Below, in pieces: positions 1 through 48,000 of a DNA stretch of 64,000 nt. The stretch lies in the NCBI GenBank assembly GCA_965287045.1, contig OZ336889.1:45446001-45510000 (forward strand). The letters run 5' to 3'. Each line of letters begins with the position of its first letter. Position 1 is the first letter of the stretch. Origin of the DNA: Carcharhinus amblyrhynchos. Taxonomy: Eukaryota. The position numbers are program-made.

Positions 1-3000
1 AAATTGCAATAACCGAATTGTTGCAGTTTAATTATGATTATCGGATACATAAATGTAAATTGATAAACAACGAGGATTCACTGAACACGGCAATGTTCCG
101 ATTGAAGACCCTTTTAAAAGAGCAACTGTTAAAACCCGAAGCTCCAGCCGCGGTGGCCATTTTCTTCAATTTCTGAAGTACGATCAATTTCTACTCTTTT
201 TGTCACATGAAAGAGATGAACCGAAATGAACAAACATTCGCAGCTGGGCCGACAGCAGTTTCTGAATTTACATACAGCTGGATCTGGAGACGGTTGTTTT
301 AAGTGGGTTTGCTAGAGCCTCGTGTTTGACCAGACAGGAGTAAAACTCGTGTGACTTCCAGTCTAAGGCTGACAGAGTCAGATAACTGCTCACACTGAAC
401 GTGTTGTCCGCCTCCTGCTGGACCCGACTGGTCTCAACCCCATTCCGCCTGACGATGCCATCTATAGTCCATTCAATCTCCGCAGCTCCCGGTTTAAAAC
501 CGCTCACCAAACACACCAGGGTCGCCGTGTTCTTCGCGGTGATTTGATCCGATGAAGGTGGGAGGAGGGAGACAGATGGTTTCTGCGGACCTGTTTTAAA
601 AATAAAATAGGTTGAGTAGTGTTGGAGAATTGATTTGGTTGACGCATTATGATTTTCCAAAAAAAATCTAAATCCTGTCATTCATTAAATACAATAAATA
701 GATCCCTTTACTTTGTGTGTTTATCCGAGGAACGGTGAAGGAGGGAGATCGATGGGACATTTGGATCTAAAAAGCGAAGTTCACTTTTAATGACTGACTG
801 GGGTTGAACTGGAGTTGACTCTGTTCAATGTTATAGACAACAATTCAATACATGCGCTTTATATTTCGCAATGTGTCTCAGAACACCATTAATGACATCT
901 TGGCTCATAATACATTGTTGAAAATAACCCTGTTATCTTTAGCTGCCGTGTTTCCACATTGAGAATCTGCGTTGCCAGTTAAAATAAGAAATAGTATTAG
1001 AAAAGCTGAACAAAGATTAAATTTGCTCTATTGTGTTCCGATGGGAAGAAATGTTGATCAGTTTTACCTTCATGTTTTTACTCCTGAAATTTGATGTTAT
1101 AATCCTGAGCAGTGTAGTTACAGTTTCTCTGGCAGTTTCTCCCTGCGAGGTTCTCCCCTCTCGGCTCAGACGGTTTCAACTCCACACGGGAAGCTGACCG
1201 CGCTATCTGTACAGCAGTCCAGCGACGGGAAAGTGGCTCAAGGCCGTAGTTACAGCTTTTGGATTAGAATCAAACCAGGATCCTCGATTGTTGGACCTAA
1301 CTCACTAAGTGTTACAGTTTTGGAGGAAGTGCCGTCAGGCTACCGTCATTGTGCGAAATCAGATTAACCAGTGATCGTTCTCACTAACGTCTATGGGGAA
1401 AAAGTGGCCGCGCAGATCATTTTGCGGATCTCATTAACAAAGATATTACGGCAAACACTCTGATATGTTTCGGATACAAGCCACGAAATAAACGCAACTA
1501 CTTGTTAGTACGGGCTGTGTCCTTAAATGTGCGTCTTTTGTTTGAGAGGACGATGGAAGTCTTGACTTTGTGCAACAGTAACAATGGTGATCTCCGGACA
1601 GATAGGTTTACATTGAGGTTGACAGAAGTAGGAGTCGGGGGAATGTAAAATCTTTCATCGACCCAGCATCCACCGTGTTACACTTTGGGCCGAGTTGCAA
1701 TCCGCTCTCATACTGCTGGTATGGAGGCGCTATATTGATGCAACTTTCTGAGCGAGATTTAGAGCTAAGAGACAGTCTTACGAATTTAACTGCATAATTA
1801 GTGGAAGAGGTCAGTGTTAAATATGATGAACAGCATTACTATAGTGGAATTGTTACACTGGGTCACAATCTGCCTTCTCTGATTACGGGTCTCTGCCTCG
1901 AAATAAGCAACAAACTCAGATTAGATTTCAACAGCGGAAGTGATTGGAGATTCCTGTGGGGCGCATGCTCAATACACAGGACAATCTGGCAATGTGAATG
2001 TTGGAACACAATGATGAAATTTAATAATGTAACATGTTCACACAATGTTAGTTTTAAAAAGACTCTGCGCTGTCGTGAAACTTGGTCATGTTTCATTCAT
2101 TGCAGAGAAAACTAGGCTGTGATTCGCTGTTTTACTTACACCCCAGCATACGCTTCAGCGGAGAAGTACACAGGCCTAACTTACAGTGGCCGTGTGAATT
2201 CAAAGCTTTGTAATTAAACAATGTCCGATAGAAAGTGTTTCCTCATGAGCGGCCAATCATCCTGCACTGCCTGTTCAAATCAACATTCCGGATTGAACCG
2301 CAGTTCAAATCAAATCCGGGATATTCAATGTAGCAATAGTTCCAACTGAAAATGGGCGGCACCATGGCACAGTGGTTTGCTTGTCTGCTTCACAGCGTCA
2401 GGCAACCGGGTTCGATTCCCGCCTAGGGTCACTGCCTGTGAGGAGTTTGCATGTTTTTCCCTGTGTCTACATTGGTTTTCTCCGGGTGCTCCGGTTTCCT
2501 TCCACTCGGAAAGGCTTGCTGGTTCGGTGCATTAACCCCAACAGGCGCTAAAGTGTGGCGACGTGGGGAATTTCAAGTAACTTCATAGCAGTGTAAACTT
2601 GTGACTAATTAATAAACTTGAAAAGTTAGCAGGAGATCCTAATGCAGAGCGTTAGTTAGTTTGATTTACCGTCCATTTTTTGCCTTCCTGTTTCTCTTGC
2701 GATATTTGATGGGCTATTTATAAGGCGCTGTTTCTACGCGAGGTCCATCAGTTCAAGTAACTGGCGCAAGTGCTCATTATTTACTTGTGTCAACAGGCAC
2801 TGTGATTTGGTAAAGTCTTTAAGGAACGGGATTTTAAACCGTTGAGACCTTTATTGGCATTACCGGGGTCTACATGTTGCCTTTCTCTGCAAGGCCATTT
2901 GATGGCACATTAGGATTAAAGCGCTTTGTTCGTTCCGCTGATCTGATGATACAGGAATTTTGCGGCTTGTTGTTATTCTGCCTGAACTAAGACAACTCAA

Positions 3001-45000: not shown

Positions 45001-48000
45001 CATAATAAATTGTTGAAAATAACCCTGTTTTTTTAGCTGCCGTGTGTCCATGTTGAGAATCTGCGTTGCCAGGTAAAATACGAAATAACATTAGAAACAC
45101 TGAACTTACATTAAATTTGCTCTATTGTGTTCCGATGGGAAGAAATGTTGATCAGTTTTACCATCATGTTTTTACTGATGAACTTTTATGTTATAATCCT
45201 GAGCAGTGTAGTTACAGTTTCTCTGGCAATTTCACCCTGGGGGGTTCCCCCTTCTCGGCTCAGACGGTTTCAACTCCACACGGGAACTGACCGCGCTATC
45301 TGGACTGACAGTCCAGCGAAGGGAAAGTGGCTCAGGCCGTAGTTACTCCTTTTGGATTAGAATTAAACCAAGATCGTTGGACATAAATGTTACAGTTTTG
45401 GAGGAAGTGCCGTCAGGCTATCGTCATTGTGCGAAATCAGATTAACCAGTGATTGGTCTCATTACCGTCTATGGGGAAAAAGTGGCCGGAGAGATCATTT
45501 TGCGGATCTCATTAACAAAAATATTACGAGATTTTTCCGATGAAAGCCACGAAATAAACTCAACCACATGTTAGTACGGGTTGTGTCCGTAAACGTGCGT
45601 CTTTTGTTCGAGAGGACGATGGAAACCTTGACTTTCTGCAACAGTAACAATGGTGATATCTGGTCAGATACGTTTACATTGAGGTTGACAGAAGTAGGAG
45701 TCGGGGATATGTAAAATCTTTTATCGACCCAGCAACCACCGAGTTACACTCTGGGCCAAGTTGCAATCCGCTCTCATACTGCTGGTGTGGAGGTGCTGTA
45801 TTGATGCAACTTTCTGAGCGAGCTTTCGAGCTAAGAGACAGTCTTATCTTCTTATAGTGGACGAGTTCGACTGCATAATTAGTGGAAGAGGTCAGTTTTA
45901 AATATGATTAATAGCATTACTATGGTGGAATTGTTACACTGGGTCACATTCTGCCTTCTCTGATTACGGGTCTCTGCCTCGAAATAAGTAGCAAACTCAG
46001 ATCAGATTTCAACAGCTGAAGTGATTGGAGATTCCTGTGGGGCGCATGCTCAATACACAGGGCAATCTGGCAATGTGAATGTTGGAACTCAATGATTAAA
46101 ATTTAATAAAGTAACATGTTCACACAATGTTAGTTTTAAAAAGACTCTGAGCTGTCGTGAAACTTGGTCATGTTTCATTCATTACAGAGAAGACCAATAA
46201 GTGATTCCCTATTTTACTTACAACCCAGCATACGCTTCAGCGGAGAAGTACACAGGCCTAACTTACAGGGGTCGTGTGCATTCAAAGCTTTGCAATTAAA
46301 CAATGTCCAATAGAAAGTGTTTCCTCATGAGCGGCCAATCATCCGGCATTGTCTGTTCAAATCAACACTCCGGGTTGAATCGCAGTTCAAATCAAATCCG
46401 GGATATTCAATGTAGCAATAATTCCATCTGAAAAGGGGCGGCACCATGGCACAGTGGTTCGCATGACTCCTTCAAAGCGTCAGGCAACCGGGTTCGATTC
46501 CCGCCTCGGGTCACTGCCTGTGAGGAGTTTGCATGTTTTTCCCTGTGTCTACATCGGTTTTTTCCGGGTGCTCCGGCTTCCTTTCACTCGGAAAGACTTG
46601 CTGGTTCGGTGCATTAATCCCAACAGGCGCCGAAGTGTGGCGGCGTGGGGAATTTCACAGTAACTTCATTGCAGTGTAAACTTGTGACTAATTAATAAAC
46701 TTGAAAAGTTAGCAGGAGATCCTAATGCAGAGCGTTACAGTCAGTTTGATTTGCCGTCCATTGTTTGCCTTCCTGTTTCTCTTGCTATTTTTGATGGGTT
46801 ATTTATAAGGGGCTATTTCAACGCGAGGTCAATCAGTTCAAGTAACTGGCGCAAGTGATCATTCTTTACTTGTAACAACAGGCAGTGTGATTTTGTCTTT
46901 ACGGAGCGGGATTTTAAACCGTTGAGACCTTTATTGGCATTACTGGGGGTCTACATGTTGTCTTTCTCTGTAAGGTCATTTGACGGCACATTAAGATTAA
47001 AGCGCTTTGTTCACCCCACTGATCTGATGGTAAAGAAATTTTGCGGCCTGTTGTTATTCTGCCTGAGCTAAAACAACTCAATGCAGACCGACAGATAGAT
47101 CAGAAAACATTATCGAATTGGAAGGCGACAGATAGTAACGTTACTTGCAGGGTCGCTTTGTATAGGGTAAATTGAATTCATGGATGTGTTGTTAAAAGAA
47201 CATTTCAATTTATTCAAAATATAATACCGAGGGAATGTTTTGTTATTAACCGGAAGCGAGTTTTGAACAATGTAACAGAAGGAAATTTACTCACTGCCAA
47301 CGCTTAGCTTGGTTCCGCCTCCGAAGTTGTACACGTTGTTTTTCCATATAGCACAGTAATACTCTGCGGCGTCCTCCGATTCAACTTGACTGATACTTAA
47401 AGTTCCCGTGTTACCGGATACCGAACCTGAAAACCGGCCTGGAACTCCCAGGGCTCTGCTAGTTCTGCTTCCAACAGAGTGATAAAGCAGATACCGGGGA
47501 GCATTTTCAGATTTCTGCTGGTACCAATATATGTTGCTGCTTCCTAAACTGGCGCCAGACAAGGTGCAACTTATTTGGACGGTTCCTCCGAGAGAAGTAG
47601 ATTTCGAAGGCGGTTGACGGACTGTAATCGCCGCGTTAGAAACTGAAAAAGAGATTCCGAATATTATTGTTAAGCTACTCAAATTAATATCAGAACAAAA
47701 TTGCCGTTTGAAAAATCACCGAAGTAGTCCTCGAAAACGCGCGTTTACATCGACCCGACGTTTTAAATACTCACACGCCAGGCTCAAAATGAACACAATG
47801 ATCGCATGGACCCAGTCAGCCATTGTGAAAAGTTTGCTGAGGTAGCGAGTTCTGCCAGTTATTTGACAAGATGGGCTAACTGTCTGAATCTCTCTCTCTC
47901 TTAATAACCCCTGTCACCAGGAAGGTGTTACCTTGTGTTGGAATGCAAATTAACCTTTTCATTGCAACCAATCAGATTAGCTCCTAAACCCTGTGACGGT

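What the first reader, a model, noticed from the sequence alone, without database searches (positions are those of the whole stretch)
268..47980. Compact tandem array of pre-joined (RAG-independent) light-chain genes with long-CDR2 V on a lambda C
Seen: three complete L-VJ-C genes, ~22 kb apart, all open with intact splice sites and no RSS between V and J. CDR2 has 11 residues (HWAGGSTNRAP) after PRYLLY, versus the usual 7. Established: cartilaginous-fish lambda (type II/NS3) clusters are germline-joined, and an 11-residue CDR2 typifies VpreB and mammalian IGLV5-type domains. Inference: these belong to the lambda-2-like V lineage paired with a conventional shark lambda C, amplified into a hard-wired, innate-like light-chain repertoire.
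Basis: partly seen in the sequence, partly recalled or inferred. Interest (0 to 1): 0.7.

Follow-up and report, generated by a model that had tools for sequence, protein, structure and literature searches.

The report
Pre-joined lambda light-chain gene array
Three neighbouring antibody light-chain genes whose V and J parts are already fused in the genome, which is the long-known, ordinary state of lambda light-chain genes in sharks and skates rather than a new kind of gene.

Summary
The minus strand carries three open leader / VJ / C genes. Their ATGs are at 3744, 25369 and 47823, 21.6 and 22.5 kb apart. All have canonical splice sites and a V-J junction inside one exon, and the 64 kb holds no RSS-like site. 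Kabat CDR2 has 11 residues in all three copies (IMGT: CDR1 8, CDR2 7).

The genes sit in a head-to-tail segmental duplication. Units 1 and 2 are 97.6% identical; unit 3 is 80-89% identical to them.

V and C, searched exon by exon, are closest to lambda chains among solved structures. V is up to 49% identical to primate lambda V domains with the same long CDR2, one named IGLV5-37. C is 46/103 identical to a lambda-type constant domain and 38/103 to a kappa-type one.

Two reviews state that all lambda (type II/NS3) genes of cartilaginous fish studied so far are germline-joined, so this is a member of a known kind.

"Hard-wired" is only half right. Differences between copies pile up in the CDRs and are mostly amino-acid-changing, and the CDRs carry AID hot-spot codons, which points to germline CDR diversity plus somatic hypermutation.

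A sigma-2 (type I) identity is the one real rival. I could not exclude it by phylogeny because no shark reference sequences were available.

The parts
1..21625 (-). Repeat unit 1 of the tandem segmental duplication. It holds gene g1 and is cut by the left end of the window 267 bp after the stop codon.
   Evidence: Self-BLAST: 1-11991 matches 21626-33603 at 97.6% identity, and further blocks match at 93-95%.
21626..44095 (-). Repeat unit 2, holding gene g2. It carries a roughly 2-kb LINE insertion (40227-42272) that unit 1 lacks.
   Evidence: Self-BLAST. RVT_1 match at 41334-42026.
44096..64000 (-). Repeat unit 3, holding gene g3. It is incomplete: the window ends about 760 bp before the point where unit 1 ends and the next unit begins.
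   Evidence: Self-BLAST: 80-89% identity to units 1 and 2; 19395-20865 matches 62542-64000.
3864..3871 (-). g1 promoter octamer ATTTGCAT. A CCAAT...ATTGG palindrome lies at 3889-3901 and a TATA-like TTATTAAAA at 3820-3828.
   Evidence: That these elements function is inferred from their position and conservation only.
3696..3744 (-). g1 leader exon: 16 codons plus 1 base, followed by the donor GTGAGT.
3213..3560 (-). g1 fused VJ exon: 2 + 345 + 1 nt. IMGT CDR1 is GASLGSSN, CDR2 is HWAGGST and CDR3 is AIWKNSLGY; the J motif is FGGGTKLGVG.
   Evidence: Pfam V-set E = 1.4e-19. AlphaFold2 mean pLDDT 82.6.
591..3212 (-). g1 J-C intron, 2622 bp.
268..590 (-). g1 single C exon. It ends ...SRSSCM followed by TAA, so the Cys is the penultimate residue.
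   Evidence: Pfam C1-set E = 1.3e-24.
25489..25496 (-). g2 octamer position, reading ATTTGCCT (one mismatch to the octamer).
   Evidence: alignment; one search found no exact octamer in g2.
25321..25369 (-). g2 leader exon.
24838..25185 (-). g2 fused VJ exon. Its protein is 90% identical to g1. CDR1 carries a derived patch of 8 substitutions within 16 nt.
21893..22215 (-). g2 C exon, 98% amino-acid identity to g1.
47943..47950 (-). g3 promoter octamer ATTTGCAT.
47775..47823 (-). g3 leader exon.
47295..47642 (-). g3 fused VJ exon, 85% amino-acid identity to g1.
44360..44682 (-). g3 C exon, 88% amino-acid identity to g1. It ends SRSSCV followed by TAA.

Best explanation
This is part of a head-to-tail array of germline-joined immunoglobulin lambda light-chain 'minicluster' genes (elasmobranch type II / NS3). 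The organisation suggests a cartilaginous fish; no call identified the organism.

Each unit of about 22 kb is a self-contained transcription unit. It has a CCAAT / octamer / TATA-like promoter, a split leader, one exon in which V and J are already fused, a 2.6-kb intron, and one C1-set exon whose penultimate Cys would bond to the heavy chain. Because V and J are fused and there is no RSS, expression needs no RAG step and there is no junctional diversity (shown).

Diversity would come from two sources. First, there are several germline copies whose CDRs have diverged by replacement substitutions (shown). Second, AID-driven somatic hypermutation would be aimed at CDRs that are rich in AGY serine codons and WRCH/DGYW hot spots (inferred from sequence).

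All copies share one junction length. The simplest history is therefore one ancient joining event followed by tandem duplication of the whole unit (inferred).
For: Anatomy:
- Three open L / VJ / C genes with canonical splice sites.
- 0 RSS-like sites in 64 kb, against 1.3 expected from shuffles.
- Only 3 V and 3 C exons in the window, one C exon per gene, each followed by a stop codon.
- V-set and C1-set domains. The V exon folds as an Ig V domain, pLDDT 82.6.

Isotype, tested exon by exon:
- V domain scores in the printed alignments were 85.1 and 84.8 bits for one lambda-type chain, 80.1 and 79.8 for another, 60.4 and 67.4 for kappa-type domains, and 18-31 for VH.
- My hand counts from those alignments are 52/109 identical residues with a lambda-type V and 45/106 with a kappa-type V.
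- C scored 84.1 bits (46/103 identical) against a lambda-type constant domain and 74.0 bits (38/103) against a kappa-type one.
- The best Foldseek hit was 49% identical, with TM-score 0.87 normalised to the query. All 50 listed rows are antibody or surrogate-light-chain entries.
- The first Atlas clusters are named IGLV1-51 for V and 'Ig lambda chain C region' for C.

Literature:
[quoted passage not shown] PMC4279169 says the same (passage).
- Lambda V domains have CDR1 of 3-9 and CDR2 of 3-7 residues (PMC5985310). The values here are 8 and 7.

Diversification:
- Between units 1 and 2 the VJ exon has 20/348 substitutions, against 247/11,626 elsewhere (Fisher p = 1e-4).
- CDRs have 12/72 substitutions and frameworks 8/273 (p = 9e-5).
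- The densest 60-nt window of the 12 kb is CDR1.
- CDR pN is 0.165-0.215 and CDR pS is 0.034-0.108.
- Serine codons in the CDRs are AGY in 5/5, 6/6 and 4/5 cases. In the frameworks they are AGY in 4, 4 and 5 of 14, 14 and 15 cases.
- Hot-spot density is 0.22-0.24 in the CDRs and 0.11-0.12 in the frameworks.
Against: - No shark, skate or chimaera reference light chain could be fetched, so there is no tree. The lambda call rests on mammalian and primate solved structures and on published ranges.
- The lambda-over-kappa margin is modest: 48% against 42% identity for V, and 45% against 37% for C.
- The IMGT CDR1/CDR2 lengths of 8 and 7 are exactly the fixed signature that PMC5985310 reports for sigma-2. 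Sigma-2 is also germline-joined in skate, gar, turtle and coelacanth.
- In some searches I told lambda-type from kappa-type chains by recalled knowledge of their sequences. The depositors' molecule names do not state the isotype.
- No expression data were available. The tissue that gave the DNA is unknown. g2 has a mismatched octamer.
- The serine-codon bias is not significant in g3 (p = 0.13).
- Substitution density shows no hypermutation-like decay along the J-C intron. The CDR excess therefore looks like selection or conversion and gives no direct evidence of AID activity.
Confidence: 0.85

Rival explanations
1. The genes are sigma-2 (type I / NS5 / sigma-cart) light chains rather than lambda. 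They would be germline-joined, as in skates, where at least 89 joined type I clusters were described.
For: IMGT CDR1 is 8 and CDR2 is 7. [quoted passage not shown] V-J joining is reported for sigma-2 in skate (abstract of PMC2192082) and in gar, turtle and coelacanth. A CDR-focused excess of replacement changes was also described for skate type I (the same abstract).
Against: V and C are both closer to lambda than to kappa among solved structures, and V reaches 49% identity to primate lambda V domains. That equals the highest V identity PMC5985310 reports between sterlet lambda and other true lambdas (49%). In that paper C sigma-2 forms a stable cluster of its own, while kappa, lambda and lambda-2 are sister groups, so a sigma-2 C would not be expected to favour lambda. 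Lambda V domains with a 7-residue CDR2 exist (range 3-7; IGLV5-37 chain).
Confidence: 0.07
2. One reading: a V of the lambda-2 lineage joined to a conventional lambda C. This would be the first lambda-2 relic in a cartilaginous fish.
For: There is none beyond the unusual CDR2 length. PMC5985310 does leave open that lambda-2 might survive in an unstudied cartilaginous fish.
Against: The defining description gives lambda-2 V a CDR1 of 5-7 and a CDR2 of 2-3 residues; here they are 8 and 7. The same paper says sterlet lambda matches lambda-2 chains at under 40%, whereas this V reaches 45-49% identity with primate lambda V domains.
Confidence: 0.02
3. The genes are not conventional light chains but non-rearranging Ig-like genes. 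They would be either UrIg/UrIg2-type genes (which automatic annotation labels as IgL) or a VpreB-like surrogate light chain.
For: They have a single-exon VJ with a split leader, as UrIg2 does (PMC12227049). VpreBJ is a structural neighbour (rank 15, 40% identity) and shares the long CDR2.
Against: UrIg and UrIg2 carry three C1-type domains. Here each gene has one C exon that ends in a stop codon, and the window holds no further C-like exon. A full J motif (FGGGTKL) and a spliced C with a penultimate Cys are present, so the genes do not have the form of a V domain standing alone. The residues that I recall as VL-VH interface positions (WYQQ, AP, YYC/YFC, FGGG) are conventional.
Confidence: 0.02
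4. The joined state or the tandem copies are an artefact: a somatic rearrangement from lymphocyte DNA, a retro-copy, or haplotypes placed in tandem by the assembler.
For: The source tissue and assembly method are unknown. Units 1 and 2 are 97.6% identical over 12 kb.
Against: Both introns are retained, so these are not retro-copies. Three diverged copies (up to 20% apart in their flanks) share the same joined structure and junction length. Different LINE insertions mark the units. Unit 1 runs into unit 2, and unit 2 into unit 3, without any N in the window.
Confidence: 0.03

Closest known systems
Elasmobranch lambda (type II / NS3) germline-joined light-chain miniclusters, for example sandbar shark lambda. 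I saw Hohman et al. [quoted passage not shown]
   Same: L / VJ / C cluster organisation. V and J are fused in the germ line with no RSS. V and C are lambda-like. There are several copies per genome. Diversity arises without rearrangement.
   Different: Nothing essential was found to differ. The spacing (21.6-22.5 kb), the head-to-tail order and the flanking LINE content are read directly here. PMC12227049 still describes the genomic distribution of the miniclusters as 'not well known'. I could not check whether a 7-residue IMGT CDR2 is the rule in shark lambda, because Criscitiello & Flajnik 2007 is not held and Table S5 of PMC5985310 is a supplement, and supplements are closed.
Skate (Raja erinacea) type I / sigma-2 germline-joined clusters (PMC2192082; only the abstract and reference list were readable)
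   Same: All copies are joined. Differences are concentrated in the CDRs. Replacement changes exceed silent ones. The genes are expressed and possibly somatically mutated. The CDR1/CDR2 lengths of 8 and 7 match.
   Different: The isotype differs: V and C here score closer to lambda than to kappa. This could not be tested against type I sequences themselves.
Nurse shark NS4 (kappa) germline-joined genes (PMC2193156; passages read)
   Same: VJ is joined in the germ line. That paper attributes the joining to RAG activity in germ cells acting on once-split genes.
   Different: NS4 is kappa-type and is a mixed family of split and joined genes. No split relative and no RSS is present in this window.
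Mammalian IGLV5-type lambda V domains and VpreB
   Same: The W-to-S span covering FR2, CDR2 and the start of FR3 has the same 35 residues (11-residue Kabat CDR2). It aligns without a gap to PDB 7czt_L, named IGLV5-37. Identity to primate lambda V domains is 45-49%, and 40% to VpreBJ, PDB 3bj9.
   Different: Mammalian IGLV5 genes are split, RSS-flanked segments in a translocon. VpreB has no J-C splice and no C domain. That CDR2 length reflects common descent is not shown.
Lambda-2 (the teleost 'lambda', gar and bichir; PMC5985310)
   Same: It is a light chain related to kappa and lambda, encoded by VJC clusters.
   Different: Lambda-2 has a CDR1 of 5-7 and a CDR2 of 2-3 residues, against 8 and 7 here. 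It has not been found in cartilaginous fish.

Membership tests
Cartilaginous-fish Ig lambda (type II/NS3) germline-joined minicluster | One split leader, one V(J) exon and one C exon within a few kb | tested here: met
   The gene span from ATG to stop is 3477, 3477 and 3464 bp. Exon structure.
Cartilaginous-fish Ig lambda (type II/NS3) germline-joined minicluster | V and J fused in the germ line, with no RSS | tested here: met
   The open exon runs continuously from the V end to the J motif FGGGTKL. There are 0 RSS-like sites in 64 kb. That the DNA is germ-line rather than somatic is inferred from three diverged tandem copies sharing the same structure.
Cartilaginous-fish Ig lambda (type II/NS3) germline-joined minicluster | V-set domain with the conserved Cys-Trp-Cys and the J motif FGxG; C1-set domain with a C-terminal Cys | tested here: met
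   Pfam V-set E = 1.4e-19 and C1-set E = 1.3e-24. Sequences. Model pLDDT 82.6.
Cartilaginous-fish Ig lambda (type II/NS3) germline-joined minicluster | V and C closer to lambda than to kappa | tested here: met
   V scored 80-85 bits against lambda-type domains and 60-67 against kappa-type domains. C scored 84.1 against 74.0 bits. The margin is modest, and I assigned the isotype of the PDB chains from recalled sequence knowledge.
Cartilaginous-fish Ig lambda (type II/NS3) germline-joined minicluster | Groups in a tree with reference type II sequences (M81314, L25566, L25560) | not testable with these tools
   No vertebrate sequence collection was open.
Cartilaginous-fish Ig lambda (type II/NS3) germline-joined minicluster | Expressed in B cells and paired with Ig heavy chains | not testable with these tools
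   No transcript or protein data were available.
Sigma-2 (type I/NS5/sigma-cart) light chains | IMGT CDR1 of 8 and CDR2 of 7 residues | tested here: met
   compared with the passage of PMC5985310 seen. This is not exclusive to sigma-2: the lambda range (3-9 and 3-7) includes it.
Sigma-2 (type I/NS5/sigma-cart) light chains | V and C fall in the separate sigma-2 clusters, outside kappa and lambda | tested here: inconclusive
   Only an indirect test was possible. There is a clear lambda preference and up to 49% identity to primate lambda V domains. No sigma-2 sequence was available for comparison.
Lambda-2 | Short CDR1 (5-7 residues) and CDR2 (2-3 residues) | tested here: not met
   CDR1 is 8 and CDR2 is 7 in all three copies, against the values in PMC5985310.
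VpreB / surrogate light chain | A V-like domain without a J-C splice to a C domain | tested here: not met
   A J motif, a J donor site and a spliced C exon are present. Identity to VpreBJ is 40%, lower than to lambda V domains.
UrIg / UrIg2 non-rearranging Ig | [quoted passage not shown] | tested here: not met
   Each gene has one C exon ending in a stop codon, and the window holds no other C-like exon. The family description is from PMC12227049.

The most novel reading that the evidence does not exclude
The differences between the near-identical neighbours g1 and g2 include runs of adjacent changed bases confined to the CDRs. They include 8 changes within 16 nt of CDR1, among them the only run of 5 or more adjacent substitutions in 12 kb, and no donor sequence lies in the window. 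These runs could be footprints of a mutational process acting on the already-joined genes in the germ line. That process could be AID-type tandem hypermutation or short-tract templated conversion. If so, the inherited repertoire would be written by the same machinery that diversifies antibodies somatically, in parallel with the germ-cell RAG activity proposed for shark joined genes. A second, linked possibility is that the long-CDR2 (IGLV5/VpreB-type) V architecture dates back to the common ancestor of jawed vertebrates.
Probability: 0.12. Interest if true: 0.65.

Novelty: new member of a known kind. Interest (0 to 1): 0.25.

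Why it matters
The finding mainly confirms a textbook feature: cartilaginous fish keep lambda light-chain genes pre-joined in the germ line. Its use is descriptive. It gives one contiguous view of three such genes, showing their spacing, orientation, promoters and LINE-filled spacers. It also gives a clean internal control: 12 kb of 97.8%-identical flank shows that divergence between copies is focused on the CDRs. It corrects the proposal that a lambda-2 V lineage survives in cartilaginous fish, which would have been notable. 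If the clustered CDR changes proved to be germ-line hypermutation or conversion tracts, the locus would be a good place to study how a non-rearranging antibody repertoire is renewed.

Tried and rejected
Papers not held:
- Six requested papers were not held: PMC7094790 (Criscitiello & Flajnik 2007), PMC47676 (Hohman 1993), PMC402057, PMC298622, PMC2575474 (Das 2008) and PMC12010099.
- For PMC2192082 only the abstract and reference list were readable.
- As a result I could not confirm the CDR lengths of elasmobranch lambda, the tetrapod isotype marker set, or the original gene maps.
- PMC6186787 said nothing on sharks.

Searches that found nothing or did not discriminate:
- A literature search for four short peptide motifs of these genes found 0 papers.
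- The ESM Atlas gave only generic V-set and C1-set clusters. Clusters named lambda and kappa were almost tied for C (0.97 each, 225 against 219 shared features), so it does not discriminate between isotypes.
- PDB ranking by whole-chain score is inflated by multi-domain constructs, so I used only the per-domain scores in the printed alignments.
- Rfam found 0 families and ARAGORN 0 tRNAs.
- Pfam found nothing in 6 of the 7 intergenic ORFs of 150 aa or more that I sent; the seventh is a reverse-transcriptase fragment.

Tests of mechanism:
- I looked for a hypermutation-like decay of substitutions along the J-C intron. The first 200 bp has 4.5%, but other intron bins reach 5.0%, so there is no gradient.
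- I looked for a donor of the g2 CDR1 patch in the window and found none.
- I checked whether the weak C-exon-like 17-residue match upstream of each C exon is an extra exon. It is followed by a stop codon and has E of about 1, so I treat it as a relic or a chance match.

Not used: complex prediction, genome contigs and the phage, plasmid and E. coli collections. None of them bears on a vertebrate Ig gene.

Full report
Scope. The window has no N, and I took nothing in it for human. The joined (spliced) sequences were never assembled, searched or folded, so no statement here rests on a full-length light-chain protein.

What is there. A six-frame motif scan and direct reading show three genes on the minus strand with the same plan.
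- g1 has an octamer ATTTGCAT at 3871-3864. A CCAAT...ATTGG palindrome lies at 3901-3889 and a TATA-like TTATTAAAA at 3828-3820.
- Its 49-nt leader exon is 3744-3696, ending T|GTGAGT, followed by a 135-nt intron.
- Its 348-nt VJ exon is 3560-3213. It follows TTTCAG| and ends A|GTGAGT. A 2622-nt intron follows.
- Its C exon is 590-268, following CAG| and ending ...SRSSCM followed by TAA.
- g2 (25369-21893) and g3 (47823-44360) align base for base with g1 and keep every splice signal.
- All V and C frames are open.
- ATTAAA and AATAAA lie 236 and 308 nt after the stop codon.
- Pfam calls the exons V-set (E = 1.4e-19) and C1-set (E = 1.3e-24).
- A three-sequence AlphaFold2 model of the V exon is a normal V domain, mean pLDDT 82.6.

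V and J are one exon. The sequence runs ...YYC AIWKNSLGY FGGGTKLGVG without interruption (g1). A scan of both strands of the whole window for RSS-like sites gave 0 hits, against 1.3 +/- 1.2 in 50 shuffles. tblastn with the window's own V and C exons finds exactly three of each and no split V, J or extra C. Both introns are present, so these are not retro-copies.

The three copies are diverged (flanks 2-20% apart) but share the same junction length. Different LINE insertions mark the units. The joined state is therefore inherited with the duplication rather than somatic. That is an inference, because the tissue of origin is unknown.

The array. Self-BLAST shows a head-to-tail segmental duplication.
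- Unit 1 (1-21625) and unit 2 (21626-44095) are 97.6% identical over the 12 kb that holds the gene. They are 93-95% identical further upstream.
- Unit 3 (44096 to the window end) is 80-89% identical to both.
- ATG spacing is 21,625 and 22,454 bp.
- The window starts 267 bp after the g1 stop codon. It ends about 760 bp before the point where unit 3, by homology with unit 1, would meet a fourth unit. The array may therefore continue on both sides.
- The spacers hold LINE debris: an RVT_1 fragment at 41334-42026 and ORFs that I recognise from recall as LINE ORF2 C-terminal parts. They hold no Rfam family or tRNA.

CDR lengths. The stretch between PRYLLY and GVP has 11 residues in all three copies. 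Ordinary lambda and kappa V domains need a 4-residue gap there. In IMGT terms CDR1 is 8 (GASLGSSN), CDR2 is 7 (HWAGGST) and CDR3 is 9. The 35-residue W-to-S span aligns without a gap to several primate light chains, one of which its depositors named IGLV5-37 (7czt_L).

Which isotype, V exon. The printed per-domain scores against PDB sequences were:
- 85.1 and 84.8 bits for one lambda-type chain, with 52/109 identical residues by my hand count;
- 80.1 and 79.8 bits for another lambda-type chain;
- 60.4 and 67.4 bits for kappa-type domains, with 45/106 identical;
- 18-31 bits for VH.
Foldseek with the V model lists only antibody or surrogate-light-chain entries among its 50 rows. The best is 49% identical (6iea_L, TM-score 0.87 normalised to the query), and VpreBJ (3bj9) is at rank 15 with 40%.

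Which isotype, C exon. It scores 84.1 bits (46/103 identical) against a lambda-type constant domain and 74.0 bits (38/103) against a kappa-type one. I told lambda-type from kappa-type PDB chains by recalled knowledge of their sequences, because most depositor names do not state it. The Atlas puts clusters named IGLV1-51 and 'Ig lambda chain C region' first, but a kappa C cluster follows closely. Both exons therefore read as lambda, with a modest margin over kappa.

What the literature says.
- Two reviews state that all lambda (type II/NS3) genes are germline-joined in every cartilaginous fish studied (PMC5192425; PMC4279169; passages read).
- PMC5985310 defined lambda-2. Its Discussion (passages read) gives the IMGT CDR lengths below.

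| Isotype | CDR1 | CDR2 |
|---|---|---|
| sigma-2 | 8 (fixed) | 7 (fixed) |
| sigma | not quoted | 9-10 |
| lambda-2 | 5-7 | 2-3 |
| kappa | 6-12 | 3 |
| lambda | 3-9 | 3-7 |

- The same paper states that no lambda-2 was found in cartilaginous fish despite an intense search.
- The V here (8 and 7) therefore fails the lambda-2 signature.

The one real rival is sigma-2. Its 8/7 signature is matched exactly, and it is germline-joined in skate (abstract of PMC2192082) and in gar, turtle and coelacanth. Against it:
- Both exons prefer lambda.
- This V reaches 49% identity to primate lambda V domains. That is the highest V identity PMC5985310 quotes between sterlet lambda and other true lambdas.
- That paper places C sigma-2 in a stable cluster apart from kappa and lambda.
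No sigma-2 sequence could be compared directly, so I leave it about 7%.

UrIg-type non-rearranging genes, which automatic annotation labels as light chains, have three C domains (PMC12227049). They are excluded because each gene here has a single C exon ending in a stop codon.

How diversity arises. Units 1 and 2 provide an internal neutral control.
- Over 11,974 aligned bases they differ at 267 (2.23%).
- The VJ exon differs at 20/348, against 247/11,626 elsewhere (Fisher p = 1e-4).
- The densest 60-nt window of the whole 12 kb is CDR1, and the only run of 5 or more adjacent substitutions lies there (3456-3452).
- Within the exon, CDRs have 12/72 differences and frameworks 8/273 (p = 9e-5).
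- Across the three pairs, CDR pN is 0.165-0.215 and pS 0.034-0.108. Framework pN is 0.029-0.049 and pS 0.044-0.087.
- With g3 as outgroup, 12 of the 20 g1-g2 differences arose on the g2 lineage, 6 on the g1 lineage and 2 are ambiguous.
- No donor for the g2 CDR1 patch exists in the window.
- Substitution density shows no hypermutation-like decay along the J-C intron.
The germ-line pattern is best read as diversifying selection, perhaps with conversion from paralogues outside the window.

Evidence that the CDRs are built as hypermutation targets.
- Serine codons in the CDRs are AGY in 5/5, 6/6 and 4/5 cases. In the frameworks they are AGY in 4/14, 4/14 and 5/15 cases (Fisher p = 0.011, 0.011 and 0.13).
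- WRCH/DGYW hot-spot positions are twice as dense in the CDRs, 0.22-0.24 against 0.11-0.12 (p = 0.014-0.036).
This is the classical signature of V genes shaped for AID-driven hypermutation (recalled knowledge). So 'hard-wired' is right for the junction but probably not for the expressed repertoire.

Mechanism, with status.
- Shown: autonomous L-VJ-C units with no RSS, intact frames and splice sites, tandem amplification, and CDR-focused replacement divergence.
- Inferred: transcription from the octamer promoter in B cells without any RAG step. Also pairing with heavy chains through the penultimate Cys and a conventional VL interface, somatic hypermutation of the CDRs, and one ancestral joining event followed by duplication.
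- Not addressed: how a cell chooses one copy.

Comparison and novelty. This works like, and by every testable feature is, a germline-joined elasmobranch lambda minicluster family, a kind known since the early 1990s. The contiguous map of three units and the internal control for CDR-focused divergence are useful detail rather than a surprise. I rate it a new member of a known kind, with interest 0.25.

What stayed unchecked.
- There is therefore no tree, no identification of the species, and no direct comparison with shark type I-IV light chains.
- Supplements were closed. Table S5 of PMC5985310, which lists CDR lengths by species, may settle whether a 7-residue CDR2 is normal for shark lambda.
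- Six key older papers were not held.

Noticed in passing
window 25489-25496 (-): The g2 promoter octamer reads ATTTGCCT, one mismatch to the ATTTGCAT of g1 and g3. The rest of the g2 promoter is conserved. This might lower g2 expression.
   Followed up: no
window 3452-3456 and 3446-3461 (-); g2 equivalent 25070-25087: g2 CDR1 differs from g1 by 8 substitutions within 16 nt, including a run of 5 adjacent bases. That is the only run of this length in 12 kb of otherwise 97.8%-identical sequence. g1 and g3 are identical here, so the patch is derived in g2. No donor sequence lies in the window.
   Followed up: partly
window 714-764, 22339-22389, 44809-44859 (-): About 125 bp upstream of each C exon lies a 17-residue stretch (PSISLLHRSSDK...) resembling the start of the C exon: 10/17 identical, E of about 1, followed by a stop codon. 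It may be a relic of a partial C-exon duplication or a chance match.
   Followed up: partly
window 41334-42026 (-), 29605-30339 (-), 54881-55519 (-), 7380-8458 (-): The spacers hold LINE fragments: a reverse-transcriptase (RVT_1) piece and ORFs that I recognise from recall as LINE ORF2 C-terminal parts. Insertions differ between units. A 432-bp element at 11993-12424 is found only in unit 1, with inverted copies at 40227-40649 and 54783-55212. A block of about 2 kb at 40227-42272 is found only in unit 2.
   Followed up: partly
units 1 and 2: 1-11991 / 21626-33603, against 12425-19042 / 33602-40227: Identity between units 1 and 2 falls from 97.6% in the 12 kb that holds the gene to 93-95% further upstream. 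It falls to 88.9% across the unit boundary (19810-26587 against 42272-49023). This could mean a recent conversion or a secondary duplication limited to the gene-proximal part.
   Followed up: no
window 44360-44682 (-) compared with 268-590 (-): Between g3 and g1 or g2 the C exon has 13 replacement and 3 silent differences (pN 0.054, pS 0.039). The codon spanning the J-C splice would read Met in g3 instead of Ser. Constraint on the C domain looks relaxed or altered.
   Followed up: no
window 16471-16557, 53023-53112, 61247-61302: There are short low-complexity tandem repeats: C-rich with a 30-nt period, G/A-rich with a 29-nt period, and one with a 15-nt unit. Strong GC-skew swings occur at about 10-12 kb, 32-34 kb and 52-54 kb (positive) and at 40-42 kb (negative).
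   Followed up: no
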